Positions 1,992 through 25,938 of a DNA stretch of 32,000 nt are shown one piece after another. The stretch comes from an uncultured archaeon. Its GTDB lineage: Archaea; Iainarchaeota; Iainarchaeia; Iainarchaeales; Iainarchaeaceae. The translations under genes were made by a program, and so were the position numbers. Position 1 is the stretch's first letter; each line of letters starts with the position of its first letter. The DNA lies in NCBI GenBank assembly GCA_964577555.1, contig CAZNZM010000004.1, forward strand, positions 85,300-117,299, in the 5' to 3' direction. Below the pieces are notes generated by a model. It worked only from the letters and a program-made list of their open reading frames with translations. It did not search any database and was not told the origin of the DNA.

Positions 1992-3533
1992 ATGAACGAT
2001 AAAAATGAAATAGGAACAGTCATATCAAGCCCTGAAGGACCATCCCCAAGCTCCCTAGATTTTGTAGTACATTCAGGGATTCTACACAAAGGAATGTTTG
2101 TAGAACTTGACTACTCAGAAGGCACAATGGTATGCCTCGTAACCGATGTAATGAAATCAAACAGATATTTTGAAAGGTTCGAATCAGTCAAAGAATTTGA
2201 AAGCTCTGGAAAAAAATTGTTTGAACAATTTCCTGCAGCGGAATGGGAATATTTAATCGGAATCACCAAACCTCTCGGGGTTTATTCAAACAACGGAATA
2301 AAAAGAGCAACATTCCCGCCATCTCCTGGAATCAAAGTCAGAATTGCCTCACAAAAAACCATTGAAAATTTTTTAGGATTCGACTTAAAAACAGGGTTGA
2401 ACCTAGGCGTAGTAGACCACCATAACGTTCCAGTAAAATTAAATCTTTCAAGGACTTTACAAAAACACTTGGCTATATTGGCAATGTCAGGAGCTGGAAA
2501 AAGCTATTTTACCTCAGTCCTTTTAGAAGAATTGCTTTCAAGAAAAAAAGAAGACGGCAGAATAGCAATAATAGTCATGGACGCCCACGGAGAATACCGT
2601 TCCTTTGCAGACCCAGTCACCGACCAAAAATACGTGGACTTCTCACCAATGACAAGATACATAAAAGGCTCAGAAATACAAATCGGAGTACCAAAACTCA
2701 CAACCACATTTATATCATCAATTCTGCCAGGAATGTCACAAGCACAAGAACGAGACCTTGCACGCATTATTGACAAATTAAAAAAAGAAATGAAAGAAGG
2801 AGCCGGGCCTTTTGACTTTTCTTCAATAAAAGCAGAAATTTACACAGACCAAGAAATGAAAGAAAACACTAAACAAGCACTCGCAGGATGGATAAACTCT
2901 CTAGAACAAATAGGCATTTTCTCAAAAGTTGACAGCCCATCAATTACAGATCTCATAACACCAGGAAAATTAACCATAATAGATTTAAGCGATATAATTG
3001 ACTTGAAAAAAAAACAAATCATAGTATCTTATTACGCACAAAAACTATTCAGCAACAGACGAATTGGCAAAATTTGCCCATTCAACCTAATAATTGAAGA
3101 AGCACACCAATTCGCACCTGAAAAAGTTTCCAGAGAAAATGCAATAAGCAAAAAAATCATTGAAACAATAGCAAGGGAAGGCAGAAAATTCGGAGCATCA
3201 ATATGCCTCATATCACAAAGACCAACACACTTATCTACAACAGCTCTAAGCCAATGCAACACACACATAATATTAAGAGTAACAAACCCATACGATGTAG
3301 AAAACATAGGAAAATTAAGCGAAGGACTTGACAAAAGAAGCCTAGACATGATAACAACACTAAGAGTAGGAGAAGCTCTAATAGTAGGAGAAGCAGTAAA
3401 CTACCCAGTATTCTTCAAGGTTAGAAAAAGACTATCACAAGAATCAAGACACGAAACCACTTTAGAAAAAGCTGCAAGAGAATTCGAAGAAAGACAAACA
3501 CAAAAACAAAAAGACATAGAAAACTACATCTGA
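1992..3533 (+). CDS. herA: HerA-type hexameric DNA helicase/translocase (FtsK-HerA superfamily ATPase)
   Basis: Walker A AMSGAGKSY, Walker B LIIEEAHQF, downstream GRKFG and ISQRP motifs. AGGTG Shine-Dalgarno at 1979-1983, 8 nt before the ATG. Confidence 0.9.
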   Translation: MNDKNEIGTVISSPEGPSPSSLDFVVHSGILHKGMFVELDYSEGTMVCLVTDVMKSNRYFERFESVKEFESSGKKLFEQFPAAEWEYLIGITKPLGVYSNNGIKRATFPPSPGIKVRIASQKTIENFLGFDLKTGLNLGVVDHHNVPVKLNLSRTLQKHLAILAMSGAGKSYFTSVLLEELLSRKKEDGRIAIIVMDAHGEYRSFADPVTDQKYVDFSPMTRYIKGSEIQIGVPKLTTTFISSILPGMSQAQERDLARIIDKLKKEMKEGAGPFDFSSIKAEIYTDQEMKENTKQALAGWINSLEQIGIFSKVDSPSITDLITPGKLTIIDLSDIIDLKKKQIIVSYYAQKLFSNRRIGKICPFNLIIEEAHQFAPEKVSRENAISKKIIETIAREGRKFGASICLISQRPTHLSTTALSQCNTHIILRVTNPYDVENIGKLSEGLDKRSLDMITTLRVGEALIVGEAVNYPVFFKVRKRLSQESRHETTLEKAAREFEERQTQKQKDIENYI

Positions 3534-3690
3534 CAAAAAAAAACAACAAAAACAAAACTCACAAAAAAAACAAGCCACAAAAAAAATCAAAATTTTCATA
3601 AAAAAATAAAAGAATTGACACGCAAAAACAAAAAAACAACACAAACAACAACCTAAAAAAAACAAAAATACAAAACAAGCTTAACAGAAA
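3534..3690. repeat. A/C-rich intergenic island (small member of the family)
   Basis: A-runs broken by C. Contains AAACTCACAAAAAAAACAAGCCACAAAAAAAA, related to 7866-7888 and 25515-25538, and GAATTGACACGC. Confidence 0.6.
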
Positions 3691-3722: not shown

Positions 3723-4121
3723 ATGAAAGCTATTTTTGAAGTCAAAACAATGCAAACACAATGGAAACCACCATTCAAAAAAACTTCAACAGAAAACCAA
3801 TTTAAAGTTTCAGAAGGGGAAAGCTTTGACCATATTAATGCAAACGGCAATGACGAAGACATATTCCAACTCATAAAAATAAAAGGAGACAAAGCACTAA
3901 TAAAGCACAGCAGAGTATTCACAATAAAAAATCCAGCCACGGCACAAGTAGAAAAAGACAGAGGATTATGGCTCACAATTGAAAAAAGCGAAGCACTAAC
4001 ATATTTATGGGGAGAGCAAGGAATAACAAAAATAATAACCTACAAAGGAATTTCTGAAGAACTTGACGAACAAACAAAACAAGAAATAGCGGAAGATCTA
4101 ATTATTCAACAGGCGCAATAA
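3723..4121 (+). CDS. hypothetical protein
   Basis: 132-aa ORF with ATG start. TATA-like ATTTAAAG about 25 nt upstream (leaderless geometry). No family recognised. Confidence 0.55.
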   Translation: MKAIFEVKTMQTQWKPPFKKTSTENQFKVSEGESFDHINANGNDEDIFQLIKIKGDKALIKHSRVFTIKNPATAQVEKDRGLWLTIEKSEALTYLWGEQGITKIITYKGISEELDEQTKQEIAEDLIIQQAQ

Positions 4122-4122
4122 A

Positions 4123-4386
4123 ATGACACAAAGAATATACCAAATTGACTCATACGCCAAAGAATGCGAAGCCACTATAACAAAAGCCGAAGAAAAATTT
4201 GCATACTTGGACAAAACAATATTCTACCCCCAAAGCGGAGGACAACCAAGCGATACAGGAAAAATAATAGACCAAAAAGGCAACGAATACAAAGTAATTT
4301 CTGCAAAAAACAACGGAGAAGACATTATTTTAGAATTGGATAAAGAAGGAATATCAGAAGGAAAAGCAAAATGCATACTAGACTGA
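4123..4386 (+). CDS. alaX: AlaX-M-like alanyl-tRNA editing protein, N-terminal fragment ending at an in-frame TGA
   Basis: LDKTIFYPQSGGQPSDTGKI matches the AlaRS/AlaX N-terminal domain. Ends ...KCILD then TGA at 4384-4386. Same frame as 4405..4827. Confidence 0.75.
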   Translation: MTQRIYQIDSYAKECEATITKAEEKFAYLDKTIFYPQSGGQPSDTGKIIDQKGNEYKVISAKNNGEDIILELDKEGISEGKAKCILD

Positions 4387-4404
4387 GACAGGCGATACAA
4401 ACTA

Positions 4405-4827
4405 ATGAAAATGCACACATCATCACATATACTTTCAGCAATAATAAACCAAGAAACACAAGCACTAATTACAGGAAACCAACTAGAAGAACAAGAATCC
4501 AGAATGGATTTCAACGCAAAAAAAATCGACAAAGAAACAATTGAAAAAATAGAAACCAAAGCAAACCAAATAATAACAAGCAACATAGAAATCAAAATAT
4601 CCTTTGAAAGAAAAGAAATAGCAATGCAAAGGCCAGAACTATTCAAACTAAAAGACGTTCTGCCAAAAAACATTCCGATATTTAGAATAGTTTCAATAGG
4701 AAACTTTGACATACAAGCAGACGGAGGAACACACGTCAAAAACACAAAAGAAATAGGAAAAATAAAAATAACAAACTTCAAAAACAAAGGAGCGGAAAAC
4801 AAAAGAATATACTGGCAACTAATCTAA
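4405..4827 (+). CDS. alaX: AlaX-M-like alanyl-tRNA editing protein, C-terminal fragment (tRNA_SAD / HxxxH editing core)
   Basis: MKMHTSSHIL carries the HxxxH zinc motif. GGTHVKNTKEIGKIKI matches the CxxxH region, but with Asp in place of the Cys. The in-frame codons 4387-4404 (DRRYKL) continue the family alignment. Confidence 0.75.
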   Translation: MKMHTSSHILSAIINQETQALITGNQLEEQESRMDFNAKKIDKETIEKIETKANQIITSNIEIKISFERKEIAMQRPELFKLKDVLPKNIPIFRIVSIGNFDIQADGGTHVKNTKEIGKIKITNFKNKGAENKRIYWQLI

Positions 4828-4887
4828 AATACACAAACCTAAAAAACAAAAGATTAAAATTAAATTAACCTACACGCTAATTCAAAC

Positions 4888-5238
4888 ATGGAATACAAAC
4901 AAATAATAATAATAAGAAATGACTTAAAAATGGGAAAAGGAAAAATAGCAGCACAAGCCGCACACGCAAGCTTAGAAGCATACGAAAAAACACTTAAAGA
5001 AAAACCGGAATGGGTTTCAACATGGAAAAAAACAGGGCAAGCAAAAATAGTGCTCAAAACACAAACAAAAAAAGAACTAACAGAACTATTTGAAAATATA
5101 AAAAAAGAAGTCCCAGCAACAATGATAAAAGACGCTGGAAAAACACAAATAGAAGCAGGAGAACCAACAGCAATAGGAATAGGACCATGCCCAGAAACAA
5201 AAGTTAATAAATTCACAAAAAACCTAAAACTATTATGA
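4888..5238 (+). CDS. pth2: peptidyl-tRNA hydrolase, archaeal Pth2 type
   Basis: 116 aa. IIIRNDLKMGKGKIAAQAAHAS and PTAIGIGP are typical Pth2 motifs. The stop overlaps the next start (ATGA). Confidence 0.9.
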   Translation: MEYKQIIIIRNDLKMGKGKIAAQAAHASLEAYEKTLKEKPEWVSTWKKTGQAKIVLKTQTKKELTELFENIKKEVPATMIKDAGKTQIEAGEPTAIGIGPCPETKVNKFTKNLKLL

Positions 5239-5459
5239 AAAAAAATAAAACAACTTACCTAATAATAGGAATTCTAACAATAATAATTACAATTACACTA
5301 GTCATAACATTAAACGACATGAAAAAAATATTTTTCACAAACAAATTATTTTCAAACCTTAACCCATCCTGGATTTTCATAATAATAGGAACCATGACAA
5401 TATGCGGAGCATACTTATTCAGCATAGCCACAAAAATATTAAAAGAAACAACGAGGTAA
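5235..5459 (+). CDS. small membrane protein (2 predicted TM helices)
   Basis: 74-aa ORF, ATGA-coupled to pth2. Two hydrophobic stretches (YLIIGILTIIITITLVI, WIFIIIGTMTICGAYLF). Confidence 0.5.
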   Translation: MKKNKTTYLIIGILTIIITITLVITLNDMKKIFFTNKLFSNLNPSWIFIIIGTMTICGAYLFSIATKILKETTR

Positions 5460-5464
5460 AAAAA

Positions 5465-6223
5465 ATGAAAAACTGGGAAACAATAAAAAAAGTAATAAAA
5501 GATTCAGACATTGTCATTGAAGTAATAGACGCAAGATTCCCAGAATTAAGCAGAAACACGCAACTTGAAGAAATAATAAAAAAATCAAAAAAAAAACTTC
5601 TCATAGTAATAAACAAATCCGACTTAATATCCAAAAAAAAAGCACAAAAAATAAAAAACAAAATAAAAGAAAACGCAATATTTATTTCTGCAAAAAAAAG
5701 AACAGGAACAATAATTCTAAAAAAAACAATAAAAAAACTTGCTAAAAACGAAAAAACAAAAATAGCAATAACAGGATACCCAAACACAGGAAAAAGCAGC
5801 ATAATAAACATGCTAAAAGGAAAAAAAAGCGCACCAGTATCACCAACAGCAGGATTCACAAAAGGAATGCAAAACATAAAAATAGACTCAAAAATAATGA
5901 TGATAGACACTCCAGGAGTAATACCAATAGAAGAATACAATGAAACCAAAATGGCGATAATATCAGCAAAAAACGTACAATCAATAAAAGACTTAGAATC
6001 AACAGGAATAGAAATAGCAGAAACACTGCTAAAAGACAACAAAACAGAAATAGAAAACCACTATGGAATAAAAGCGGACAACGGCGAAGAACTACTCATA
6101 AAAATAGCTGAAAAAAGAAAACTACTCAAAAAAGGAGGAGAATACAACCTTAACGAAGCGGCCAGAATACTAATAACAGACATGCAAAGAGGCACATTAA
6201 AAATAAAAAAAGGAAAAACATGA
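5465..6223 (+). CDS. circularly permuted GTPase (YlqF/RbgA/MMR-HSR1-like ribosome-biogenesis GTPase)
   Basis: G4 NKSDL precedes G1 GYPNTGKSS and G3 DTPG. I prefer ATG 5465 (MKNWETIKKVIKDSDIVIEVIDAR) inside track ORF 5402..6223. Confidence 0.85.
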   Translation: MKNWETIKKVIKDSDIVIEVIDARFPELSRNTQLEEIIKKSKKKLLIVINKSDLISKKKAQKIKNKIKENAIFISAKKRTGTIILKKTIKKLAKNEKTKIAITGYPNTGKSSIINMLKGKKSAPVSPTAGFTKGMQNIKIDSKIMMIDTPGVIPIEEYNETKMAIISAKNVQSIKDLESTGIEIAETLLKDNKTEIENHYGIKADNGEELLIKIAEKRKLLKKGGEYNLNEAARILITDMQRGTLKIKKGKT

Positions 6224-6230
6224 ATAAGTC

Positions 6231-6896
6231 ATGATATCACAGACATACAAAGAACCAATACAAGTATTTATTGCAATTTATGCAATATTTGGAATAATAA
6301 TATTTTACATAATATTTTCAAACCAAGGATTTGAAATACAGGAAAAATTCAATCAAAACACGAAACAAAAAGAATATTTCCTACAAAACCTCACAAAAAG
6401 AAAAATAAACGACATAAACATCACATACTTAGACAACAAAAACCAAAAAATACTCAAAAACGAGACAATAAAAGAACTTATGCCTGAAGAAAAAAAAACA
6501 CTTAACATAGAATCAATTTCAGCATCAGAAATAAAAATCATAGCAACAAGTACATTCTACAACCAAGCAGAAAAAATCATTCTGTTTGAAACACAAAAAC
6601 CTACAATAAAAACAACATACCCTAGCACAGTAAAATTCGGACAAAGATTCAACTTTATATTAGAATACTGCAACAACGACAATACAGAAACACAAAAAAC
6701 AACAATTGAAGAAAACCACGACAAAATATTTTTCTTGGAAAAACCGATAACAAAAACACTCCAAGTAAAAACAGGAGAATGTGAAAAAATAACATATAAC
6801 TTTTTAGCAGCACACAGAGGAGAAACCAAAATATATTTTAATGTAATAACCCCAAATACTAACCAACAAATAGAAGAAATAATAAGAGTTGAATAA
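6231..6896 (+). CDS. hypothetical membrane-anchored protein
   Basis: 221-aa ORF with an N-terminal TM helix (IQVFIAIYAIFGIIIFYIIF). No family recognised. Confidence 0.55.
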   Translation: MISQTYKEPIQVFIAIYAIFGIIIFYIIFSNQGFEIQEKFNQNTKQKEYFLQNLTKRKINDINITYLDNKNQKILKNETIKELMPEEKKTLNIESISASEIKIIATSTFYNQAEKIILFETQKPTIKTTYPSTVKFGQRFNFILEYCNNDNTETQKTTIEENHDKIFFLEKPITKTLQVKTGECEKITYNFLAAHRGETKIYFNVITPNTNQQIEEIIRVE

Positions 6897-6899
6897 ACT

Positions 6900-7550
6900 A
6901 TGAAGCAAAACAGCAGCATAATAGAAATAATAGAAAAAATGGTCAGGGACGGCGAACCAGAAGAAAAAATATTAAAAACACTCCTCGAGCTCGGCGTGGA
7001 ACCTGAAAAAGCAAAAAAACTGCTTCTGTTGGGGCAAGCAGATACATTTTCACTACTTAAAAGAGAAATAAGAAACATAGTACACGATGAATTAGAAAAA
7101 GAAAAACCAATGCTCAAAAAATTCATAGAAGAAGAAACAATACAAGCAAACTACGAAGCAAGACAAGAACTGACAAAAGCAGTAATAAGCGACCTAAAAG
7201 AATATGAAAAAGACATTTCAGGATACAACAAAACATTCCAAGAAAAAATTGAAGAAAATGTCAGAAAAATAACCGAAATGAACGACAAACTAAAAATAAA
7301 ACTAAACGAAATGGGAGAAAACCTTAGACAAGTACAAATAGACATGGATGAAATGAGAATAAAAGGAATAGGGTCAAGAAACAAACTAATAAGCAACGCA
7401 CTCTGGCTATTAGGACTATTTTTCGGAGTTGGAACATTCTACATTTTCATCACAAGTTTCGGACAAGCACTAACAATCGACAACATAATAGTAATGATAA
7501 CAATGGCGCTAATCACAATAACAATGCTTTTTGTGGCAACAATAATATGA
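6900..7550 (+). CDS. hypothetical coiled-coil protein with C-terminal TM helices
   Basis: 216-aa ORF with long K/E-rich helical segments and two C-terminal hydrophobic helices. Lies 3 nt after the previous stop. Confidence 0.55.
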   Translation: MKQNSSIIEIIEKMVRDGEPEEKILKTLLELGVEPEKAKKLLLLGQADTFSLLKREIRNIVHDELEKEKPMLKKFIEEETIQANYEARQELTKAVISDLKEYEKDISGYNKTFQEKIEENVRKITEMNDKLKIKLNEMGENLRQVQIDMDEMRIKGIGSRNKLISNALWLLGLFFGVGTFYIFITSFGQALTIDNIIVMITMALITITMLFVATII

Positions 7551-7817
7551 AAAAGCCAAAAACAAGTTCAAAAAAAACAAACAAAAAAATTAATTGAAAA
7601 CTAAAAATGAAAACACGCTTCACTAAAAAAAACGGCTCTACAAGAAAAAGACCATAAACGATTGAATTTTAAAATTAAAAATTGACAAAAAAAACTTGGC
7701 TAAAAAAAAACAGACAAACAAAAATTCAAAAAAAACAAAAAAACGGCTCACAAAAACAAACAACAAAAAAAACCAACCAAAAAAAAATAAGAAAAAAAAT
7801 GACTTGCAAAAAAACAA

Positions 7818-7858
7818 AAAAAAATAACAAAAAAACTTGACAAGCAACATCAAAAAAA
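7818..7858 (+). repeat. 41-nt module identical to 25783-25823
   Basis: AAAAAAATAACAAAAAAACTTGACAAGCAACATCAAAAAAA, compared base by base with the 25.8-kb copy. A related copy lies at 21084-21099 (CTTGGCTAGCAATATC). Confidence 0.85.
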
Positions 7859-7860
7859 CA

Positions 7861-7954
7861 AAATTGGCTTGCAAAAAAACAAGCCACAACAAAATAATTG
7901 ACAAAAAAAATCGTCCAACAAAAAAACCAAAAAAACCGCAAAAAAATGGCTCAC
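7861..7954 (+). repeat. ~95-nt module, ~96% identical to 25510-25604
   Basis: Hand alignment gives 3 substitutions (TG/CA at 7870-7871, G/A at 7938) and one A-run length difference. Confidence 0.85.
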
Positions 7955-8018
7955 AAAAAACAAAAAAATAATGACAAAAAAAGGCTCGCCAAAACAAATT
8001 TAAAAAAAATAAAAAAAT

Positions 8019-8141
8019 TCAAGCTTTCTCATAATCCTTCAAATTCTTTAAAGCGTTCTCAAGCAAAATTTTTTTCCTCAAACTTTTTTCCTTAGAAATC
8101 AACCGGTCGATTTCACTTATAATCATTTCAATTTCCAACAT
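8019..8141 (-). CDS. candidate 40-aa helical small protein, absent from the ORF track
   Basis: MLEIEMIISEIDRLISKEKSLRKKILLENALKNLKDYEKA. TATA-like TTTTTAAATT lies on the minus strand (top-strand 8164-8173), 22 nt before the ATG. This patch is top-strand T-rich, against the local A/C background. Confidence 0.35.
   Translation of the reverse strand: MLEIEMIISEIDRLISKEKSLRKKILLENALKNLKDYEKA
8069..8089 (+). terminator. oligo-T tracts: first plus-strand T-runs downstream of gene 6900..7550
   Basis: T7 at 8069-8075 and T6 at 8084-8089. Archaeal termination typically uses oligo-T. These tracts overlap the candidate minus-strand small ORF. Confidence 0.35.
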
Positions 8142-8191
8142 ATTACTAATAAATCATTCGAGCAATTTAAAAATAAAAGCAAAAAAAATAA

Positions 8192-8593
8192 TCAACGCAA
8201 AGTGCTTTGCAAACCACAAAGAACATCAATAGAAACACCAAACTTTCTCGCCTTTTCAAACGAAATAGTATAATACTTTCCCTTGGCAAAATCAGAAGCC
8301 TTAAGAAAAAACCAGCCTTTATTAGGATACTTCCAAGCAATATAAGTTTCACTGCCAGCAATCCTCTCCCACTTTATGAGGTCATTCATTTGAATGGAAC
8401 TAATAGCTAAATAAGGAGCTCTCCAAGCCTTACATTCTATTGAAATATTCCTGCCATTACCAAGCACAATAAGGTCAGGGCTAGGCAAATGATTCTTGCC
8501 AGAACCAGCACTGCGAACAACAGCAAAACCGCGTTCAGCAAAAAGCTCCATAAGTTCACGCTCAGCACTTGCCCCTTTATTATAACGAGCCAT
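8192..8593 (-). CDS. hjc: Holliday junction resolvase Hjc
   Basis: 133 aa. KGASAERELMELFAERGFAVVRSAGSG...PDLIV...ECK matches the archaeal Hjc nuclease core. A T8 tract on the minus strand lies just after the stop. Confidence 0.9.
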   Translation of the reverse strand: MARYNKGASAERELMELFAERGFAVVRSAGSGKNHLPSPDLIVLGNGRNISIECKAWRAPYLAISSIQMNDLIKWERIAGSETYIAWKYPNKGWFFLKASDFAKGKYYTISFEKARKFGVSIDVLCGLQSTLR

Positions 8594-8613
8594 AAAAAAA
8601 CTAACAACACTTT

Positions 8614-8625
8614 CATTTAAAATTT
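8614..8625 (-). promoter_or_regulatory. TATA-like box for hjc
   Basis: The minus strand reads AAATTTTAAATG, centred ~26 nt upstream of ATG 8593 (leaderless geometry). Confidence 0.4.
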
Positions 8626-8817
8626 GAAGCCCGACAAAAAAACCAAAACAAAAACAAAAAAACAGAGCCTACAAGGTTTGACGAAAAATTAAACAGAAAA
8701 AGGCACAACGTCACATTAATATACTTTTTCCAAGCAAAAATAAATACAAGCCCAAAAGGGCATTATGCTTAGAGAATCAGGATTTAAGCTTTTGAAACAA
8801 AAAAAATTGGTTATTGC

Positions 8818-9099
8818 GTGACACAAAAAATCGCAAAAATAGAATTGGAAACAATCCCTAATTCAGACAAATTCAGAATTATGGGTTTCAATCCATGGAC
8901 AGGAAGACTAAGAGTCAAAATAAAATCAAAAGCTCAAAAAGGAGAAGCTAATAAAGAACTTTTATTAGAATTTCAAAAAATATTCAAAAACGAAGCACAA
9001 ATCCTTTCAGGAGAAAAAAGCAGAAAAAAAACAATACTGCTAAAAAACATCTCGGAAAAGGAAGCAAAAGAAACACTTACAAAAAAAAGCAAATCCTGA
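8818..9099 (+). CDS. DUF167 / YggU-family (UPF0235) protein
   Basis: 93 aa with a GTG start. RLRVKIKSKAQKGEANKELLLEFQKIF matches the DUF167 core (K..A..G.AN.EL..FL). Confidence 0.7.
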   Translation: MTQKIAKIELETIPNSDKFRIMGFNPWTGRLRVKIKSKAQKGEANKELLLEFQKIFKNEAQILSGEKSRKKTILLKNISEKEAKETLTKKSKS

Positions 9100-9132
9100 T
9101 TCTAAAAACCAAAAAAAAAGGAGATGGAAAAA

Positions 9133-10542
9133 ATGGCAAAAACATACATAAATGCTGTAAAATACGCAATCAAAATGAGTTTTGAAGTCGACGGAATAGT
9201 TGATAAACCAGACATAATAGGCGCAATATTCGGACAAAGCGAAGGACTGCTTGGAGACGAAATGGACCTCAAAGAACTGCAAAAAAACGGAAAACTTGGA
9301 AGAATAGAAATCAATCACACAACATCAATGGGAAAAACAAAAGGCGAAGTCCTAATACCTTCCTCGCTTGACATGGCCGAAACAAGCCTTTTAGCAGCAG
9401 GAATAGAAACAGTAGACAAAGTAGGCCCATGCGAAGCAAAATTCAAATTAATCGACATAGAAGACACAAGAACAGAAAAAAGACAAGAAATAAAAGACAG
9501 GGCAAAAGAAATACTAAAAATGCTAATGGAAAAATCATCACCAGAAACACAAACACTTTCAGACGAAATAAGAGAAAACGCAAGAGCGGCTGACATAATA
9601 GAATACGGCCCCGACAAACTACCAGCAGGTCCAGATGTTGAAACAAGCGAAGAAATAATAATAGTTGAAGGAAGAGCAGACGTACTCAACATGCTCAAAA
9701 ACCAAATAAAAAATGTAATAGGAATGAATGGCTCAAACATATCTCCAAGCCTTGCACAACTAACCAAAACAAAAACAGTAACAGCATTCGTTGACGGCGA
9801 CAGAGGAGGAATACTCAACGCAAGAAAACTTATGCAAATAGCAAAAGTGGATTTTATAGCACAAGCACCAACCGGAAAAGAAGTAGAAGAACTCACAAGA
9901 AAAGAAATACTGCTTTCACTAAAAAAGAAAAAACCAGCAACAGAAATAGAAGACACAAACACCCAACAAAAAGAATATCAAGGACACATATTCAAAGAAA
10001 GAATAACAGAAAACCAATATAACAGAAGACACCCAAGAAAAAATATGTACAGAGAAACAGAAAGTTACTACAAAAAAAACCAAGAATACAACCTAAATAT
10101 AAGAAATAAAAGAGGAAGACGCATAAACACAAGAAGCACGACAAGATATGCACCATCAATAAGCAGAAACCAAAAACCACAAACAAATTGGGTGCAAAAA
10201 ATAGAAAGAGTACCATTCAACATTGACAACACGGAACCAAAAACAACACCACAAAAACTGTCACAAGACGAAGAAGCAATATTCAAACCGTTTTTTGAAC
10301 AACTTAAAGGAACAATGACTGCAAAAATACTCGGCAAAAAAAACGAAATAATCAAAGAAGCAAAAGTAAAAGACTTAATAAAAGAGCTACCAGAAATCAA
10401 AGAAGCCAACGCAATAATATTCGACGGAGTAATAACAAAAAGACTAATAGAAGCCGCAGAAAAATCCGGAATAAAATACATAATCGGAGCCAAAAAAGGA
10501 AAAATAGAAAATAACAACAATGTAAAAACAATAACACTATAA
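9133..10542 (+). CDS. dnaG: archaeal DnaG-type primase (TOPRIM)
   Basis: TOPRIM motifs IIIVEGRADV and FVDGDRGG. I prefer ATG 9133 (AGGAG at 9119-9123, 9-nt spacer) over ATG 9124. Carries a K/R/N-rich low-complexity insert. Confidence 0.85.
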   Translation: MAKTYINAVKYAIKMSFEVDGIVDKPDIIGAIFGQSEGLLGDEMDLKELQKNGKLGRIEINHTTSMGKTKGEVLIPSSLDMAETSLLAAGIETVDKVGPCEAKFKLIDIEDTRTEKRQEIKDRAKEILKMLMEKSSPETQTLSDEIRENARAADIIEYGPDKLPAGPDVETSEEIIIVEGRADVLNMLKNQIKNVIGMNGSNISPSLAQLTKTKTVTAFVDGDRGGILNARKLMQIAKVDFIAQAPTGKEVEELTRKEILLSLKKKKPATEIEDTNTQQKEYQGHIFKERITENQYNRRHPRKNMYRETESYYKKNQEYNLNIRNKRGRRINTRSTTRYAPSISRNQKPQTNWVQKIERVPFNIDNTEPKTTPQKLSQDEEAIFKPFFEQLKGTMTAKILGKKNEIIKEAKVKDLIKELPEIKEANAIIFDGVITKRLIEAAEKSGIKYIIGAKKGKIENNNNVKTITL

Positions 10543-13279: not shown

Positions 13280-13899
13280 CCTTTCAAATCAAACTCAGAT
13301 TTAATTATTCTCACAACTTGCGCCTTAACACTTCCAATATCCTTTGACGCATCAATAAAAAAAATTTTTTCAAAAGGAAAAACAGACTTCAAATCCAAAA
13401 AACCACGCCTCACCTTTTCCAAAAAATCTTCCCTCTCAAAAACATCAACATGATTACGCCTGCCTATCCTCTTCAAAGCATCAGCAACAGGCAAATCCAA
13501 AATAAAAACCAAATCAGGAGAAGGTAAACCAGCATGCAAATCAAAAATTTTTTTCAAAGAAATGCCTTGCAAAGCCTGATAAACAAAAGTACTATACTTG
13601 AACCTATCAGACAAAATTATTTTGCCCTCACTCAAAGCAGGAATTATTTCCTTTTCAACATGCTCTCTCCGGTCATATACATACAATTCAAGAAACTGAT
13701 TTGCATTAACAATTGGATCAACATTTGACTTAAGCAATTCCCTAACCTTCTTGCCAAAAAAACCATTAGTAGGCTCGGCAGTTACGATAATTTTTGACCT
13801 AGAAACCCCCATTTCAGTAAACCAAACCTTTATCTCACGAGCCAAAGTCCCCTTTCCAGAACCATCAATGCCGTCAAATACAATCCAAAAACCCTTCAT
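13261..13899 (-). CDS. tmk: thymidylate kinase
   Basis: MKGFWIVFDGIDGSGKGT P-loop and DRF motif. I prefer ATG 13899 over TTG 13905. The last 19 nt overlap tRNA-Gly(GCC) on the opposite strand. Confidence 0.9.
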   Translation of the reverse strand: MKGFWIVFDGIDGSGKGTLAREIKVWFTEMGVSRSKIIVTAEPTNGFFGKKVRELLKSNVDPIVNANQFLELYVYDRREHVEKEIIPALSEGKIILSDRFKYSTFVYQALQGISLKKIFDLHAGLPSPDLVFILDLPVADALKRIGRRNHVDVFEREDFLEKVRRGFLDLKSVFPFEKIFFIDASKDIGSVKAQVVRIIKSEFDLKGATAGN

Positions 13900-14456: not shown

Positions 14457-14900
14457 AAAAAAACAAAAAAAATGAAACCAACAAACCAAAAAAAAAACAA
14501 AACTTCAAACAAAAAAAATACCAAACAAAAAATATCAAAAAAATGCCTAACAAAAAAATAAAAAAAATAAAATAGATCAAAAAAAACTACTTGCAAAAAA
14601 ACAAAACCCAATTAAAAAAACAACAAAAAAAACAAATTGAAAAAAAATAAATGAGAAAAAAAATTAAGGCACACAAAGACAAAACAAAAAATAAATACCC
14701 AAAAAAATGAAATCAAACAAAAAAAATAAAGTTGCCAAAAAAAATGGCTTGCAAAAACAAAAAGAAAAAAAAGCAATTTGAATTTTCTTAAAAACAAAAA
14801 AAACACAAAAATCGGTCGACAAAAAAATGCCAAAAAAAACGAGACAAAGAAAAAAATGACACAAAAAAAATAATTAGAAAATGGAAAAGACAAAGCCTCT
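14457..14900. repeat. A/C-rich intergenic island (~445 bp)
   Basis: Words include ACTACTTGC, CCCAATTAAAAAAA (module shared with 21041 and 25761), TAAGGCACAC, GTTGCCAAAAAAAATGGCTTGC, TCGGTCGAC, ATGCCAAAA and ATGACAC. Confidence 0.8.
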
Positions 14901-14967
14901 AAAACAAGCTTTTTAAATGTTTTTTGAGAAACATTAATAACTTCTAATTTTAATTAATTGGAAGTTT

Positions 14968-16186: not shown

Positions 16187-16614
16187 AAGGAGAGCAAGCA
16201 AATTACAACATATCGCTAGCAAAAGCATTTCTATATCCCCCAAAAAAAAGAATAATAAAAGCAATAGGTGTTATAAAAAAATTTGCAAAAAAACACACAA
16301 GAGCAAAAACAATAAATATAGCAAACGAAGTCAATGAGTACCTGCATAAAAATTCGAAAAACTTGCCAAGAAAAGTCAATGCAATCCTATTCAAAGAAAA
16401 CGACAAAATAACAATATTCATGCAAAACGGAAAAGAACTAAAAACATACCTAAAAAAAAGAGAAGAAGAAAAGAAAAAAAAAGAAGAGAAAAAAGAAGAA
16501 CAAAAAAAAGAAAAAAACGAAAAAGAAGAAACAGATAAAATAAAACTTGAAGAAAAAAAGAAAAAAGAAGAAGCCGCGGAAGCCTCACAAATAAAAAGAA
16601 AAACAAACAAGTGA
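16183..16614 (+). CDS. rpl31e: 50S ribosomal protein L31e with K/E-rich C-terminal extension
   Basis: Core YNISLAKAF...KRIIKAIGVIKKFAKKH...ANEVNEYL. GAGGG Shine-Dalgarno 7 nt upstream. Confidence 0.85.
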   Translation: MKGEQANYNISLAKAFLYPPKKRIIKAIGVIKKFAKKHTRAKTINIANEVNEYLHKNSKNLPRKVNAILFKENDKITIFMQNGKELKTYLKKREEEKKKKEEKKEEQKKEKNEKEETDKIKLEEKKKKEEAAEASQIKRKTNK

Positions 16615-16619
16615 ACAGA

Positions 16620-17288
16620 ATGAACTTTGCAAAGGGTACCATAAAAAACAGCCCTTACACAGGCGTCTTTGCAACAGTAACAGACGACATAGCAATAGTG
16701 CCATTCTCAATTACAGAAAAAGAAGAGAAAACAATTGAAAAAACCCTGGAAGTGGAAGTTATCAAAGCAAGCATAGGGGAAACCTCCATGATAGGAATAC
16801 TGGCAAAAGGAATTGGAAAAAAAATTGTTGTTTCATCACTCGCAGAAAACAATGAAATAAAAGCACTAGAACACAAGGGAATAGAAATAATAAAAATAGA
16901 CGCAAATGGATTCACATCAACAGGAAACTTGCTCTGCATGAATCAAAAAGCAGGGATAGCAAGCCAACTATTAGGAAAAAAAAACATTGAAAAAATATCA
17001 AAATTCTTCAAAATAAAATTCAAAACACGAACAATTGCAGGATCAGAACTAGTTGGAGCAGCCACAACAGTAACAAATAAAGGTTTTATCTGCAATCCAA
17101 ATATTAAGCCAAAAGAATTCAAAGAACTTCAAAAAATATTCGGAACACAAGGAAAACCAACTACAGCCAATTTTGGCGACTTGTTTGTAGGAAACAGCGT
17201 AATAGCAAACAGCAAAGGGGCAATAGCAGGAGAAAACACGTCGGGAATAGAAATGCTCAAAATTGATGAAGGCTTAAGAGGAGATTAA
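16620..17288 (+). CDS. eif6: translation initiation factor 6 (aIF6)
   Basis: Repeated eIF6 pseudo-symmetric motifs (SPYTGVFATVTDDIAIVP, TSMIGILAKG, GFTSTGNLLCMN, LVGAATTVTNKG, LFVGNSVIANSKG). I prefer ATG 16620, with AAGTGA upstream. Confidence 0.9.
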   Translation: MNFAKGTIKNSPYTGVFATVTDDIAIVPFSITEKEEKTIEKTLEVEVIKASIGETSMIGILAKGIGKKIVVSSLAENNEIKALEHKGIEIIKIDANGFTSTGNLLCMNQKAGIASQLLGKKNIEKISKFFKIKFKTRTIAGSELVGAATTVTNKGFICNPNIKPKEFKELQKIFGTQGKPTTANFGDLFVGNSVIANSKGAIAGENTSGIEMLKIDEGLRGD

Positions 17289-20706: not shown

Positions 20707-20738
20707 ACAAAAAAATAATTTAATGCATACTAAATATT

Positions 20739-20759
20739 CTCGGCACTAAAAGTGCCGGG
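20739..20759 (+). terminator. GC-rich hairpin downstream of the small protein gene
   Basis: CTCGGCACT-AAA-AGTGCCGGG: 9-bp stem with one G-T pair. A T6 tract follows about 55 nt later, at 20814-20819. Confidence 0.35.
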
Positions 20760-20760
20760 C

Positions 20761-21290
20761 TTTACAAAAACAAAATAAAAAAACCCAACTATCAGTATCT
20801 TAAAACACAAAAATTTTTTGCTAGCCAAACTTGAAAAAAAAGGAAAAAACTAAAACCTGACACACAAAAACAAAAAAATAAAATTAACCAAACAAAAACG
20901 AATAACAAAAAATCACTAAAACTACAAAACAAAAAAAAAAGACACAAAATAAAGTTAAATTTCAAAAAAAAAATAATAAAAATAGCATAAAAAAAATTGG
21001 CATACAAAAAAAGGCTCGCCAAAAACAAACAACAAAAAAAACAAAATCCAATTAAAAAAAACAAAAAATAATGACAAAAAAAACTTGGCTAGCAATATCA
21101 AAAAAAACAGCACACAAAAACAAAAAAAACAACTTGACAAAAAAAACAATTAAAAATTAAAAACTGATTTTACAAAACAAAACAGCCACCAACAAAATTT
21201 CGAAAAACATCAAAAAAGCAAAGTAAACCAAAAGAATTATCTGCACTAACCCCTAAAAATGCCGAAAACAATGCAATTTGCTTATTAAAA
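20761..21290. repeat. A/C-rich intergenic island (~530 bp)
   Basis: Words include TTGCTAGCCAA (20818-20828), CCTGACACAC, TTGGCATAC, GGCTCGCC, TCCAATTAAAAAAAA, AATGACA, CTTGGCTAGCAATATC and CTTGACA. Modules shared with 7.9-kb, 14.6-kb and 25.7-kb islands. Confidence 0.8.
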
Positions 21291-21332
21291 ATACATTACA
21301 CATTTAATTTTAAAAGCAAAGAGTGATAAAAA

Positions 21333-23506: not shown

Positions 23507-24568
23507 GTGAACCAAAAAGAAAAATTCATGAAAGAAGCACTTAAAATAGCAGAAAAAGGAACAGGATTAGTACCACCAAATCCGATAGTAGGAGCAATCA
23601 TAGTAAAAGACGGAAAAATAGTTGGAAAAGGTTGGCACAAAAAATACGGAGAAAAACACGCAGAAGCAAACGCAATAGAAAACGCGGGAAAAAAAGCAAA
23701 AGGAGCAGAACTATACGTAACACTTGAACCATGCAACCATTACGGCAAACAACCACCATGCACAAAACTCATAATCAAAGCAGGAATAAAAAAAGTGTAT
23801 GCAGCAATAAAAGACCCAAACAAAAAATCCAAATCAGGCGGAAAAGAACTACAAAAAAAAGGAATACCAATAGAATTCGGACTATGCGCAGACAAAGCAA
23901 CAGAGCAAAACGAAATATTCATTAAAAACATGAAAACAAAAAAACCATTCATAGCACTTAAAATGGCAATGACAAAAAATGGCTATATAACTTGGGGCAA
24001 CGGAAAAAGAAAAAAAATTTCAGGAAAAAAAGCAATGGAATACTCGCAAAAACTCAGAAAAAAATACGACGCAATCCTAGTAGGAGTAAACACTATAATA
24101 AAAGACAATCCAAGGCTTATATACAAAAAAAACCAAAAATACAACCCTGCCAGAATAATACTTGACCCGAAAGCAAGATCCCCGCCAAATTCAAAAATAT
24201 TCAAACAAAAAGGAAAAACAATAATAGTTTGCACAAAAAAAGCAAACAAAGAAAAAATAAAAAAACTAGAAAAAAGAAACGTTGAAATACTCATTGCAAA
24301 AGAAAAAAAAGGAAAAATAAACCTTGAATGGCTACAAAAAAAATTATATGAAAAAGGAATAACTTCAATAATCATAGAAGGGGGAAAAAAAACAGCACTC
24401 GAATTTCTTAAAACAAAATTAATAGATAAATTCTACGCAATAATATCAAACAAAAAAATCAAAACAGGATTAAAAATATTCAAACTCAAAAACTCGGAAA
24501 TGGAAATAACAGAAATAAAAAAACTTGGAAAAGACACTCTAATAATACTTAAAAGGTGCTTGAAATGA
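23507..24568 (+). CDS. ribD: fused riboflavin-biosynthesis protein RibD (pyrimidine deaminase + reductase)
   Basis: Deaminase HAEANAI and LEPCNHYGKQPPC motifs, plus a RibD_C-like C-terminal half. GTG start with CAGGAG 8 nt upstream. Confidence 0.85.
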   Translation: MNQKEKFMKEALKIAEKGTGLVPPNPIVGAIIVKDGKIVGKGWHKKYGEKHAEANAIENAGKKAKGAELYVTLEPCNHYGKQPPCTKLIIKAGIKKVYAAIKDPNKKSKSGGKELQKKGIPIEFGLCADKATEQNEIFIKNMKTKKPFIALKMAMTKNGYITWGNGKRKKISGKKAMEYSQKLRKKYDAILVGVNTIIKDNPRLIYKKNQKYNPARIILDPKARSPPNSKIFKQKGKTIIVCTKKANKEKIKKLEKRNVEILIAKEKKGKINLEWLQKKLYEKGITSIIIEGGKKTALEFLKTKLIDKFYAIISNKKIKTGLKIFKLKNSEMEITEIKKLGKDTLIILKRCLK

Positions 24569-25461
24569 AAATAGCAATAACCGGCAGCGAAGGAATGATT
24601 GGCAAAGAACTTACAAAAAACCTAGAAAGAAAAAACCACAAAATAATCAAATGCACAAAACAAGAATGCAACATACTTGACATTGAAAAACTTAGAAAAA
24701 AATTCAAAGGTTGCAAGATAATTATACACCTTGCCGCACAACTTGACGAAAAAGCAAAAGACTTGTGGGAAGTAAATGTAAAAGGAACAGAAAATTGCCT
24801 CGAAGCGGCAGCAACAAATGGAATTGAACAATTTATTTACATAAGCAGCGTAGGCGTTTTTGGACTACAAAAAGGGCTAAAAGACGAATCAACAGAACCA
24901 AAACCAGAAACACTATACGAAAAAAGCAAATTAGAAGCTGAAAAAAAAGTTCTATCATACCAAGAAGTTTTCCACATAACAATATTGAGGCCTGCAATAG
25001 TAGTTGGAAACAATAAATATTGGAACCAAATAATCAAACTCATAAAAAAAGGTTTCCCAATTATTGGCAACGGAAAAAACCATTGGCAAACAATCTCCAC
25101 AGAAGATGTTGCAAATGCAATTGAATTCTGCATAGGCAACGAAAACACATACGGAGAAACATTCATAATAGCTGAAAAAAAACCGAAAACACTTGAAGAA
25201 ATCGTAAAAATAATAAGAAACGAATTGGAAATAAAAGGAAAAATAATAAAAATACCAGAATGGCTTGGAAAAATATTGGCAAAAATAAACACCATAATAA
25301 AATTCAACAACATACTCAACATAGAATACATTAAAAGGTTGCAAGCTGACAGGCACTATTCAATTTCAAAAATTGAAAAAATAGGATGGAAACCAAAAAA
25401 CAATTTTGAAGAAACAATAAAAAAAGTCATAGAACAAATGAAAAAAGACAACCAATTATAA
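24565..25461 (+). CDS. NAD-dependent epimerase/dehydratase family protein
   Basis: MKIAITGSEGMIGKEL Rossmann motif and YEKSK catalytic motif. ATGA overlap with the ribD stop. AAGGTG Shine-Dalgarno upstream. Confidence 0.85.
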   Translation: MKIAITGSEGMIGKELTKNLERKNHKIIKCTKQECNILDIEKLRKKFKGCKIIIHLAAQLDEKAKDLWEVNVKGTENCLEAAATNGIEQFIYISSVGVFGLQKGLKDESTEPKPETLYEKSKLEAEKKVLSYQEVFHITILRPAIVVGNNKYWNQIIKLIKKGFPIIGNGKNHWQTISTEDVANAIEFCIGNENTYGETFIIAEKKPKTLEEIVKIIRNELEIKGKIIKIPEWLGKILAKINTIIKFNNILNIEYIKRLQADRHYSISKIEKIGWKPKNNFEETIKKVIEQMKKDNQL

Positions 25462-25938
25462 AAAAAATATCGCCAAAACAAAAAAACCAATCAAAAAAAT
25501 AAGAAAACAAAATTGGCTCACAAAAAAACAAGCCACAACAAAATAATTGACAAAAAAAATCGTCCAACAAAAAAACCAAAAAAAACCACAAAAAAATGGC
25601 TCACCAAAAAAAACAAAAATTGTCTAAAAAAAGGCTCACAAAAAACAACAAAAAAACAGCCCGCAAAACAAATCCAAAAATAAAAAAAACAACCAGACAA
25701 AACAAAAAACAAAATTAATTACAAAAAAAAGACCACAAAAAAAATTGGCTCACAAAAAAAACAAAACCAAATTAAAAAAAACAAAAAAATAACAAAAAAA
25801 CTTGACAAGCAACATCAAAAAAAACAAGCCATGAAAAAAAATTCAAATAAAAAACAAATCACTCCTCAAAAAAATGGCTAGCCAAAAAAAAGACGTAAAA
25901 AAAGATTGATTAAAATAAAATCATTGAAAAATAATCAC
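25462..25938. repeat. A/C-rich intergenic island (~477 bp)
   Basis: Words include ATCGCCAA, TTGGCTCAC (twice), CAAGCCAC, TTGACA, TCGTCC, TGGCTCACC, GGCTCAC, CAGCCCGC, CTTGACAAGC, CAAGCCATG and the perfect palindrome TGGCTAGCCA (25875-25884). Confidence 0.8.

What the first reader, a model, noticed from the sequence alone, without database searches (positions are those of the whole stretch)
7818..7954. Near-identical island modules 17.6 kb apart, shuffled among islands
These comparisons were made base by base.
- 7818-7858 is identical to 25783-25823 (41 nt: A7-TAAC-A7-CTTGACAAGCAACATC-A7).
- 7861-7954 matches 25510-25604 with only 3 substitutions and one A-run length change (~96% over ~95 nt).
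- ACAAAAAAAGGCTCGCCAAAA is identical at 7974-7994 and 21004-21024.
- 21033-21110 aligns with 25753-25826 at roughly 85%.
- The core CAAAAYCMAATTAAAAAAA recurs at about 14601, 21041 and 25761.

Module order differs between loci. In the 7.8-kb island the CTTGACAAGC module sits directly 5' of the 95-nt module. In the 25-kb island it sits ~200 bp 3' of it.

This mosaic pattern implies recent duplication, gene conversion or mobility among islands, or strong selection. In such a biased genome, neutral A/C tracts would not stay 96% identical by chance.
Basis: seen in the sequence. Interest (0 to 1): 0.65.

Follow-up and report, generated by a model that had tools for sequence, protein, structure and literature searches.

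The report
Shuffled repeat modules in A-rich spacers
Two long non-coding gaps 17.6 kb apart in a tiny DPANN archaeon really do share near-identical stretches, but these are one link in a genome-wide web of fast-changing A-run repeat arrays that most likely copy pieces of each other by slippage and recombination, not a mobile element or a conserved signal.

Summary
7818-7858 equals 25783-25823 (41/41). 7861-7954 matches 25510-25604 at 95.8%. With gaps allowed, the homology is 7809-7858 vs 25774-25823 and 7855-7994 vs 25504-25644. One contiguous 186-nt stretch of the first spacer is therefore split and reordered in the second, with the breakpoint in an A7 run.

Token-shuffled and Markov nulls never reach the 165-bit match. 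An independent assembler breaks exactly inside the 41-mer from both sides, so this is a true two-copy repeat.

The genome is a Candidatus Iainarchaeum-like MAG (979 kb). It has 134 non-coding arrays built of A7-9 runs and short words. 66 are linked by above-null matches, 64 of them in one network. The arrays also hold tandem duplications of variable period. Strong matches favour nearby arrays. No transposase or reverse transcriptase was found. The 25.5-kb array is missing from the same spacer in three congeners.

Best reading: satellite-like spacer DNA that grows and exchanges segments by slippage, template switching or ectopic conversion at A-runs, then decays under the genome's extreme strand-biased mutation.

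This scan had already noted these arrays elsewhere in the same genome (e1-2519757, e1-979689).

The parts
7551..8002 (+). A-run array ('island') in the convergent spacer between gene 6900-7550 (+) and a small minus-strand ORF followed by Hjc. It consists of A7-9 runs alternating with short words.
   Evidence: tokenised sequence; gene calls.
7809..7858 (+). Module A, copy 1. It contains the exact 41-mer 7818-7858: A7-TAAC-A7-CTTGACAAGCAACATC-A7.
7852..7858 (+). A7 run shared by modules A and B. It is the rearrangement breakpoint relative to the 25.5-kb array.
   Evidence: the two HSPs overlap only in this run.
7855..7994 (+). Module B, copy 1. The 95-nt match of the finding extends to about 140 nt.
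   Evidence: 90.9% of 143 nt, 185 bits; core 107 nt, 95.3%, 165 bits.
7865..7887 (+). Local hairpin TGGCTTG-N8-CAAGCCA inside module B. In copy 2 it is weakened on the + strand and kept only through G-U pairs on the - strand.
   Evidence: There is no general excess of structure in the arrays.
25462..25938 (+). A-run array in the convergent spacer between the epimerase gene (24556-25461, +) and PcrB (25939-26739, -). It is a lineage-specific gain.
25504..25644 (+). Module B, copy 2.
25774..25823 (+). Module A, copy 2. It lies 129 nt 3' of module B.
21032..21109 (+). Older, diverged copy of the chain that contains module A: CAAAATCCAATT-A8-C-A6-TAATGAC-A8-CTTGGCTAGCAATATC.
   Evidence: 88.5% to 25752-25826 and 90.2% to C1:58437-58739.
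20821..21233 (+). A-run array in the tandem spacer 20707-21332.
14457..14909 (+). A-run array in the tandem spacer 14457-14957. It carries the CAAAACCCAATT-A7 word and has no above-null match to the other window arrays.

Best explanation
The two matches are paralogous segments of a satellite-like, non-coding repeat system that fills the long spacers of this Iainarchaeum-like genome.

Each array is a string of A7-9 runs separated by 1-20-nt words, many of them GGCTCRC-type. My reading of how the arrays behave:
1. They grow by local tandem duplication of segments of arbitrary length.
2. They exchange 40-270-nt segments with other arrays, preferentially nearby ones. The likely routes are replication slippage, template switching or RadA-mediated ectopic conversion, primed on the A-run plus word microhomology that all arrays share.
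3. Copies then decay by strand-biased substitution (mostly towards A) and by +/-1 changes in A-run length.

Homology-guided copying automatically keeps the A-rich strand on the same chromosome strand as the rest of the replichore. This explains the strict polarity without an orientation-specific insertion machine.

The 7.8-kb/25.5-kb pair is a comparatively recent exchange (about 4-9% diverged). Its different module order reflects a break in an A7 run of an A-B(-A) tandem unit.

Shown: the paralogy, the network, the tandem duplications, the proximity bias, the lineage-specific gain, the decay direction, and the lack of transposition genes. Inferred: the molecular route (slippage, template switching or conversion) and the absence of a specific function.
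For: - **Above-null homology.** Real arrays give 149 HSPs of at least 80 bits against 0-3 in nulls.
- **Network.** 66 of 134 arrays are linked and 64 form one component. Identities spread continuously over 85-100%.
- **Tandem duplications.** Periods range from 59 to 295 nt at 72-100% identity, with no fixed unit.
- **Proximity bias.** 30% of strong pairs lie on the same contig against 15.6% expected. 53% of those are within 20 kb, against 28% of all same-contig array pairs.
- **Breakpoint.** It lies in an A7 run. The A-B-A arrangement occurs in C10.
- **Graded four-copy family.** TCGTCCCGC changes to TCGTCCAAC or TCATCCCAC, towards A.
- **Decay of the core word.** One-off variants are dominated by G>A and C>A. 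There are 207 indel bases in A-runs beside 406 substitutions over 11.8 kb of paired sequence.
- **Polarity across the switch.** An inverted 99.2% pair (132 nt) spans the polarity switch of contig C1, each copy keeping the local polarity.
- **Lineage-specific gain.** The 25.5-kb array is absent from the orthologous spacer of G001, G002 and G004.
- **Lineage restriction of the word.** The GGCTYRC-in-A-runs pattern occurs 64 times here, 0 times in 30 relatives, and only as 23 singletons in the metagenome collection.
- **Gene content.** No Y1 transposase, TnpB or RT. RadA is present. No MutS was found, and NucS/EndoMS is present. By my own knowledge NucS handles base mismatches, not indel loops.
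- **Location.** Arrays occur in all four spacer classes and are densest in convergent spacers, the least constrained ones.
Against: - The core word GGCTYRC is about 1,500 times over-represented (201 observed, 0.13 expected).
- It is strictly one-stranded (163 vs 0).
- Its fixed positions differ slightly less between paired copies than other word positions do (4.4% vs 7.3%). The HSPs are not independent.
- A-run lengths peak sharply at 7-8 and almost never exceed 10. Congeners G001 and G002 have the same A7-9 architecture with different words. These two facts could reflect selection on the architecture rather than a slippage equilibrium.
- No reads, strain variants or transcripts could be examined, so turnover has not been seen directly.
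Confidence: 0.6

Rival explanations
1. The arrays are selected, strand-polar cis-elements. The GGCTCRC core between A7-8 tracts is the docking site of a lineage-specific protein, or the poly(dA:dT) runs keep histones off. Possible roles are chromosome organisation, fork-direction sensing, boundary elements, stacks of oligo-U terminators for genes on the T-rich strand, or a DNA-uptake-type signal. On this view, module copying is only how the sites spread.
For: - The core word is over-represented about 1,500 times and shows absolute strand polarity.
- The flanks are defined: A7, then [A/T][T/C]GGCT[C/T][G/A]C[A/C], then A7.
- A-run lengths peak non-geometrically at 7-8, and only in non-coding arrays.
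- Congeners with other words share the same architecture.
- The core has a slightly lower mismatch rate.
- The double variant GGCTTAC is rare (4, against about 38 expected if the two variable positions were independent).
- The genome encodes an archaeal histone.
- 87% of genes with sense on the T-rich strand have a T>=5 run within 150 nt downstream.
- There is an analogy with poly(dA:dT) tracts flanking ORFs in Plasmodium (PMC4194402).
Against: - The word family is absent from 30 relatives, including 4 congeners.
- The array at 25.5 kb replaces an ordinary short spacer.
- The core visibly decays towards A.
- Arrays are densest where constraint is lowest.
- A-run spacing is a broad 12-17 nt with no helical phasing.
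- A terminator role cannot explain polarity that ignores gene direction. It also leaves 62% of A-strand genes without a T run.
- Copy-driven amplification of three founder variants explains the rarity of GGCTTAC equally well.
Confidence: 0.22
2. The modules are non-autonomous mobile elements (MITE- or PATE-like). For example, they could be mobilised as single-stranded DNA at the replication fork by an IS200/IS605-type enzyme. Such a mechanism would lock their orientation to the direction of replication.
For: - Copies are dispersed on many contigs.
- Replichore-wide polarity has a single clean switch at C1 about 148-150 kb.
- Some modules have a small hairpin.
- Short words such as TGAC, TAAC and TTAC recur between A-runs.
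Against: - There is no constant length or constant ends. Shared segments range from 40 to 270 nt with different boundaries for different partners.
- No target duplication can be defined.
- No Y1 transposase, TnpB or RT is present.
- Neither strand has excess secondary structure (mean z about 0 over 113 arrays).
- Proximity bias and tandem duplications of variable period fit recombination better.
Confidence: 0.1
3. The matches are chance products of low-complexity A/C-rich sequence, or they are assembly duplication artefacts.
For: - Matches of 40-60 bits, including the 21-nt identity 7974-7994 = 21004-21024, are about as common in token-shuffled arrays as in real ones (3,500-3,640 vs 4,426 HSPs of at least 40 bits).
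- Contig ends and N gaps of this MAG lie in arrays.
Against: - The 165-bit match was never reached in eight null genomes; the null maximum was 99.6 bits.
- An 84-bit match or better occurred only 0-3 times per null among 8,911 array pairs.
- The exact 41-mer has 0 expected matches.
- Two assemblers and two samples agree base for base, and the Logan contigs break exactly at the repeat.
Confidence: 0.03

Closest known systems
BIMEs / REP mosaic elements of enterobacteria (and BOX-type modular repeats of streptococci); comparison from my own knowledge
   Same: - Intergenic.
- Hundreds of copies.
- Built as mosaics of a limited vocabulary of short motifs in varying order and number.
- Lineage-specific.
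- Frequent in convergent or 3' spacers.
   Different: - There is no palindromic unit and no excess structure.
- Motifs are never in alternating orientation; they are strictly one-stranded.
- No RAYT/Y1 transposase is present.
- The motifs are separated by A7-9 runs.
- The host is an archaeon.
Mini- and microsatellite arrays evolving by slippage, unequal exchange and gene conversion
   Same: - Head-to-tail duplications.
- Run-length changes.
- Distance-dependent exchange between arrays.
- Fast turnover and absence from close relatives.
   Different: - There is no fixed unit; periods range from 59 to 295 nt.
- About 134 arrays are dispersed over a 1-Mb prokaryotic genome and share modules across contigs.
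- All arrays have one polarity per replichore.
Poly(dA:dT) tract enrichment flanking ORFs in Plasmodium and other compact eukaryotic genomes (PMC4194402)
   Same: - Homopolymer A/T tracts are far above compositional expectation.
- They are concentrated in intergenic DNA next to ORF ends, in an AT-rich compact genome.
- A histone is encoded here too.
   Different: - Here the tracts have a narrow length optimum (7-9).
- They lie on one strand only, irrespective of gene direction.
- They alternate with recurrent G/C-containing words.
- Nucleosome exclusion is untested.
Archaeal oligo-U (T-tract) transcription terminators
   Same: Read on the T-rich strand, each array is a stack of T7-9 runs immediately after the stop codon of minus-strand genes. 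Examples are PcrB at 25939 and the small ORF/Hjc unit at about 8020.
   Different: - Dozens of runs occur where one or two suffice.
- Polarity ignores gene direction, so most genes on the A-rich strand get none (38% vs 87%).
Replication-associated extreme strand asymmetry (earlier notes e1-2519852 and e1-2519755 on this genome; vertebrate mtDNA-like)
   Same: - Array composition (A 0.64, C 0.14, T 0.14, G 0.08) matches the roughly two-thirds A reported at freely evolving sites.
- Polarity is contig-wide and independent of gene orientation.
   Different: Asymmetry alone predicts geometric A-run lengths and no shared modules. The arrays show a 7-8 peak and a homology network.

Membership tests
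REP/BIME-type mosaic intergenic repeats | An imperfect palindromic unit that forms a stem-loop | tested here: not met
   Central 150-nt windows of 113 arrays gave a mean z of -0.05 on both strands against dinucleotide shuffles. Only occasional local hairpins occur.
REP/BIME-type mosaic intergenic repeats | Mosaic combinations of a small set of motifs in intergenic DNA, in many copies | tested here: met
   Tokenised arrays share word chains across contigs. The network joins 64 arrays.
REP/BIME-type mosaic intergenic repeats | An associated RAYT (Y1-type) transposase | tested here: not met
   PF01797 found no match in the 95.5%-complete genome, while the control genomes were positive.
MITE / IS200-IS605-derived PATE | Discrete element with constant ends and length (terminal inverted repeats or subterminal hairpins), and a target site or target duplication | tested here: not met
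   Shared segments range from 40 to 270 nt, with boundaries that differ by partner. HSP ends always fall at A-runs, so no target duplication can be defined.
MITE / IS200-IS605-derived PATE | An autonomous partner encoding a transposase, TnpB or RT in the genome | tested here: not met
   PF01797, PF07282 and PF00078 all found nothing. An unassembled or extrachromosomal partner cannot be excluded.
Mini-/microsatellite-like tandem arrays | Head-to-tail repeated units inside the array | tested here: met
   TRF found periods of 59-295 nt, 1.8-4.7 copies and 72-100% matches in many arrays.
Mini-/microsatellite-like tandem arrays | Length or copy-number polymorphism among individuals or strains | not testable with these tools
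The other assemblies found are identical over the parts they cover.
Archaeal oligo-T terminators | A T>=5 run on the sense strand shortly after the stop codon | tested here: inconclusive
   Met for 87% of genes on the T-rich strand but only 38% of genes on the A-rich strand. Array polarity ignores gene direction. No transcript ends are available.
Nucleosome-excluding poly(dA:dT) tracts | Over-represented homopolymer tracts flanking ORFs, and histone depletion over them | tested here: inconclusive
   Over-representation and location are met. A histone gene is present. Occupancy is not testable here.
Structured non-coding RNA | A match to a known family, or conserved or stable secondary structure | tested here: not met
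   Rfam at gathering threshold found only three tRNAs in the window. Folding z-scores are about 0.

The most novel reading that the evidence does not exclude
The arrays are a selected, replichore-polar cis-system. A7-8 tracts flanking a GGCTCRC core would be read by a lineage-specific factor tied to the direction of replication or to chromatin, such as a fork-polar barrier, an organiser or a histone-free boundary. Inter-array conversion would be the homogenising mechanism that keeps about 200 sites functional against an extreme mutation bias. That would be an archaeal counterpart of polar chromosome motifs, embedded in dedicated non-coding arrays.
Probability: 0.12. Interest if true: 0.75.

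Novelty: new variant of a known kind. Interest (0 to 1): 0.45.

Why it matters
DPANN genomes are usually described as streamlined. This one spends about 5% of 979 kb on non-coding arrays that are built, exchanged and eroded quickly.

The module network gives a concrete, datable record of illegitimate recombination in an uncultured archaeon that has RadA and NucS but no MutS. It shows how an extreme strand-specific mutation bias and homopolymer slippage can together create ordered-looking DNA: a sharp A7-8 optimum, strict polarity and a recurrent word, all without a dedicated element.

Practically, these arrays are where the assembly breaks. They also leave most genes on the A-rich strand without an oligo-T terminator, which raises a testable question about how transcription ends there.

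If the minority reading is right and the core word is a protein site, the arrays would be a new kind of polar chromosome element in archaea.

Tried and rejected
- **Structured RNA.** Rfam found only tRNAs. Folding of 113 arrays gave z about 0 on both strands. The hairpin in module B is weakened in copy 2.
- **Intrinsic DNA curvature.** A-run spacing is a broad 12-17 nt with no 10.5-nt phasing.
- **CpG hypermutation** as the cause of the CGC/CAC/TGC variants. CpG observed/expected is 1.12 in the arrays.
- **Transposon or retroelement.** No Y1 transposase, TnpB or RT was found.
- **Target-site duplications.** These cannot be assessed, because every homology end runs into an A-run by construction.
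- **Origin-linked polarity.** Orc1/Cdc6 genes at C1 about 60 kb and C4 about 16 kb show no polarity switch. The only clean switch (C1 about 148-150 kb) lies beside a XerA-like recombinase where genes converge. I could not decide between origin and terminus.
- **Other genomes carrying the modules.** An exact scan for module A in metagenome contigs found nothing. The core-word pattern gave only 23 singletons.
- **Exact-protein lookup for the epimerase** found no record.
- **Gene calling.** My first two crude gene callers mis-assigned strands. Only the strand-specific model was used for the spacer statistics.
- **Timing.** The first all-vs-all blast run timed out.

Full report
**1. Context**

The window is G000:C4:85300-117299 of a 979,397-bp, 15-contig assembly that is 95.5% complete.
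- Its genes are archaeal: NurA, HerA, Pth2, Hjc, archaeal DnaG, PcrB and RadA.
- The nearest named relatives of its DnaG are Candidatus Iainarchaeum MAGs, a DPANN group.
- The + strand of the window has an AT skew of about +0.4 to +0.6.
- Earlier notes of this scan describe an extreme, orientation-independent strand asymmetry in this genome. They also describe A-rich spacers carrying a GGCTCAC-type motif.
- I re-tested what I use from those notes.

**2. The observation**

- 7818-7858 and 25783-25823 are identical over 41 nt. No match occurred in 100 shuffles of the window.
- 7861-7954 vs 25510-25604 has 3 substitutions and one A-run indel.

With gapped alignment the homology is longer.
- Module B is 7855-7994 vs 25504-25644 (90.9% of 143 nt; inner 107 nt at 95.3%, 165 bits).
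- Module A is 7809-7858 vs 25774-25823 (48/50, 84 bits).
- In the 7.8-kb spacer, A and B abut and overlap only in the A7 run 7852-7858.
- In the 25.5-kb spacer, B comes first and A follows after 129 nt. The order difference is therefore real, and the breakpoint is an A-run.

The weaker claims grade off.
- 21032-21109 vs 25752-25826 (88.5%, 70 bits) is borderline. A third copy in C1:58437-58739 supports it.
- The 21-nt identity 7974-7994 = 21004-21024 is at null level.

**3. Is it more than chance or artefact?**

I extracted 209 A-rich tracts genome-wide (64 kb). I kept the 134 with less than 30% gene overlap (47.5 kb).
- All-vs-all blastn gave 149 HSPs of at least 80 bits, 66 of at least 100 bits and a maximum of 515 bits.
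- Shuffling the order of 'word plus A-run' tokens within each array gave 0-3 HSPs of at least 80 bits and none of at least 100. This null is deliberately harsh, because it keeps every word.
- A 5th-order Markov null gave none of at least 80 bits.
- Matches of 40-60 bits are mostly low-complexity noise: 4,426 real against about 3,500 in the token-shuffle null at 40 bits or more.

Independent assembly supports the sequence.
- A JGI contig and Logan contigs of SRR12686701 are 100% identical.
- The Logan contigs stop at 7847 and at 25794, exactly 30 nt into the 41-mer from either side. That is the signature of a true two-copy repeat in a k=31 graph.
- A contig from a second sample is also identical over the stretch it covers, 25858-27288.

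**4. What the arrays are made of**

- On the A-rich strand the composition is A 0.64, C 0.14, T 0.14, G 0.08.
- In non-coding arrays A-run lengths are not geometric. The counts are 363 (length 6), 737 (7), 928 (8), 320 (9) and 47 (10).
- A-rich coding tracts and the rest of contig C4 fall off monotonically.
- Runs start every 12-17 nt, without helical phasing.
- Between the runs sit short recurrent words.
- The commonest G-containing word is GGCT[C/T][G/A]C: 201 copies against 0.13 expected.
- GGCTC[AG]C occurs 163 times on the A-rich strand of the arrays, never on the other strand, and 235 times in the whole genome.
- Its context is A7, then [A/T][T/C]GGCT[C/T][G/A]C[A/C], then A7.

**5. Polarity**

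- Array polarity is contig-wide. C4 has 56 A-polarity arrays and none of T polarity. C2 and C3 have none of A polarity and 46 and 33 of T polarity.
- Yet genes on C2 and C3 are split about evenly between the strands.
- Contig C1 has one clean switch between 147,958 and 150,291 that is not at an N gap. A XerA-like recombinase lies there and the genes converge.
- The two Orc1/Cdc6 genes show no switch.
- One local exception exists at C12:11295-11515.
- Polarity therefore follows a chromosome-scale property, presumably the direction of replication, and not transcription.

**6. The module network**

- At 80 bits or more, 66 arrays are linked and 64 of them form a single component.
- Identities spread over 85-100% and lengths over 40-270 nt.
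- The pair in this finding ranks about 15th.
- Module B has further copies in C10:21771-22520 and C1:76487-77402 (85-89%).
- The four-copy alignment shows nested similarity and changes towards A: TCGTCCCGC becomes TCGTCCAAC or TCATCCCAC.
- The 25.5-kb array is a true mosaic. Along its length its best partners are C1:76487, the 7.8-kb array, C10, the 7.8-kb array again and the 21-kb array.
- Inside arrays, TRF finds tandem duplications with periods from 59 to 295 nt at 72-100% identity, so there is no fixed unit.
- C10 carries A-like, B, A-like in tandem. The A-B and B...A orders in the window are therefore most simply different windows and indel derivatives of such a tandem.
- Strong pairs are enriched on the same contig (30% vs 15.6%).
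- Same-contig strong pairs are also enriched within 20 kb (53% vs 28%; median 17.8 vs 41.3 kb), and nearer pairs tend to be more similar.
- A 99.2% pair (132 nt) lies inverted across the C1 switch, each copy keeping the local polarity.

**7. Evolutionary behaviour**

- The A-run-flanked GGCTYRC pattern was found 64 times here and in none of 30 relatives searched, including four of the same genus.
- In the metagenome collection it occurs only as 23 singletons.
- The generic A7-N-A7-N-A7 architecture is abundant here (1,355 hits). It is moderate in congeners G001 (114) and G002 (80) and in one same-order genome (73). Elsewhere it is at background level.
- G002 shares the extreme AT skew (0.41) and has shorter 'A7-9 plus word' spacers with unrelated words.
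- At the orthologous epimerase-PcrB junction, G002 has essentially no spacer. G001 has about 190 nt of ordinary sequence with T-runs on both strands. G004 has about 100 nt.
- The 477-nt array at 25.5 kb was therefore gained in this lineage, built of sequence now shared with other arrays.
- Differences between paired copies are 52% transitions, plus A-involving transversions (406 substitutions in 11.8 kb). There are also 207 indel bases inside A-runs.
- One-off variants of the core word are mostly G>A and C>A.

**8. Mechanism**

- No Y1 transposase, TnpB or reverse transcriptase is present.
- RadA is present. MutS was not found and NucS/EndoMS is present.
- Segment boundaries vary with the partner, and neither strand has excess structure.
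- Together with the tandem duplications, the proximity bias and the A-run breakpoint, this points to slippage, template switching and ectopic conversion using the ubiquitous A-run plus word microhomology.
- Copying is followed by biased decay.
- Homology-guided copying also explains why polarity is never violated by copying.
- The A7-8 optimum may be a slippage focal length or may be selected. I cannot tell which.

**9. Function**

- Arrays occur in all four spacer classes and are densest in convergent spacers. A7-9 runs per kb are 22.7 there, against 15.4, 10.0 and 9.8 in the other classes.
- In tandem spacers they sit next to the upstream stop codon and leave an ordinary promoter-proximal stretch.
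- On the T-rich strand they act as ready-made oligo-T stacks. 87% of T-strand genes, but only 38% of A-strand genes, have T>=5 within 150 nt downstream.
- A histone gene is present, so histone exclusion by poly(dA:dT), as proposed for Plasmodium spacers (PMC4194402), is conceivable.
- The slightly lower divergence of the core word (4.4% vs 7.3%) and its huge over-representation keep a protein-site reading alive, at roughly 20%.

**10. Verdict**

- 'Mobility' as transposition and 'strong selection' are not supported.
- The phenomenon is a lineage-specific, strand-locked, mosaic satellite-like repeat system. It is a new variant of known kinds (BIME-like mosaics, minisatellites) and had already been noticed twice by this scan on other parts of the same genome.
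- This report adds the genome-wide module graph, its statistics, the proximity bias, the lineage-specific gain and the explanation of the module order.

Noticed in passing
G000 contig C1 about 147,958-150,291 (locus L001 about 6,950-9,300): This is the only clean switch of array polarity and AT skew in the assembly. It is not at an N gap. It lies beside a XerA-like tyrosine recombinase (C1:147989-148867), and the genes converge there. The two Orc1/Cdc6 genes (C1 about 60-61 kb, C4 about 16 kb) show no switch. I could not decide between origin and terminus.
   Followed up: partly
whole genome (statistics); in the window, for example downstream of 25461 and 14456: Only 38% of genes whose sense strand is the A-rich strand have a T>=5 run within 150 nt after the stop codon, against 87% of genes on the T-rich strand. 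Most A-strand genes therefore lack the usual archaeal oligo-T termination signal.
   Followed up: partly
G000 contig C12:11295-11515: A genuine array (TGGCTCGCC-A8-C-A7...) has polarity opposite to its neighbours at C12:1-498, 13382-13718 and 16344-16714. The local AT skew is reversed over about 11-13 kb. This may be a small recent inversion.
   Followed up: partly
G000 C1:76487-77402 vs C7:30-460; contig ends of C2, C7, C10, C12, C14; N gaps in C1 (87178-87277, 157842-157941): Contig ends and scaffold gaps sit inside arrays. C7's end is 99.6% identical over 268 nt to the array at C1:76.5 kb. The arrays are where this assembly breaks, and some array-internal order may be uncertain.
   Followed up: partly
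window 8020-8142 (-): A roughly 40-codon minus-strand ORF (MLEIEMIISEIDRLISKEKSLRKKILLENALKNLKDYEKA, my reading of the sequence) lies between the array and Hjc. The metagenome gene calls instead place short + strand ORFs inside the array (7682-7840, 7898-8095), which look spurious.
   Followed up: no
window 3723-7550 vs G002:C2 (loci L031/L032): The block of genes 4888-7550 is inverted relative to Hjc and DnaG in congeners G002 and G001, but not in G004. Spacers that carry arrays here coincide with rearrangement boundaries.
   Followed up: no
G000 C2:7105-8034: This is the largest array. It holds a 295-nt higher-order unit repeated 2.1 times at 88% identity. The chain CAAAATCCAATT-A7-TAATTGAC-A9-GAATTC-A11-G-A5-TGAC-A7-TGGCTCGCC is also found in C10:1-667, C14:1-226 and C1:137407-138122.
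   Followed up: partly
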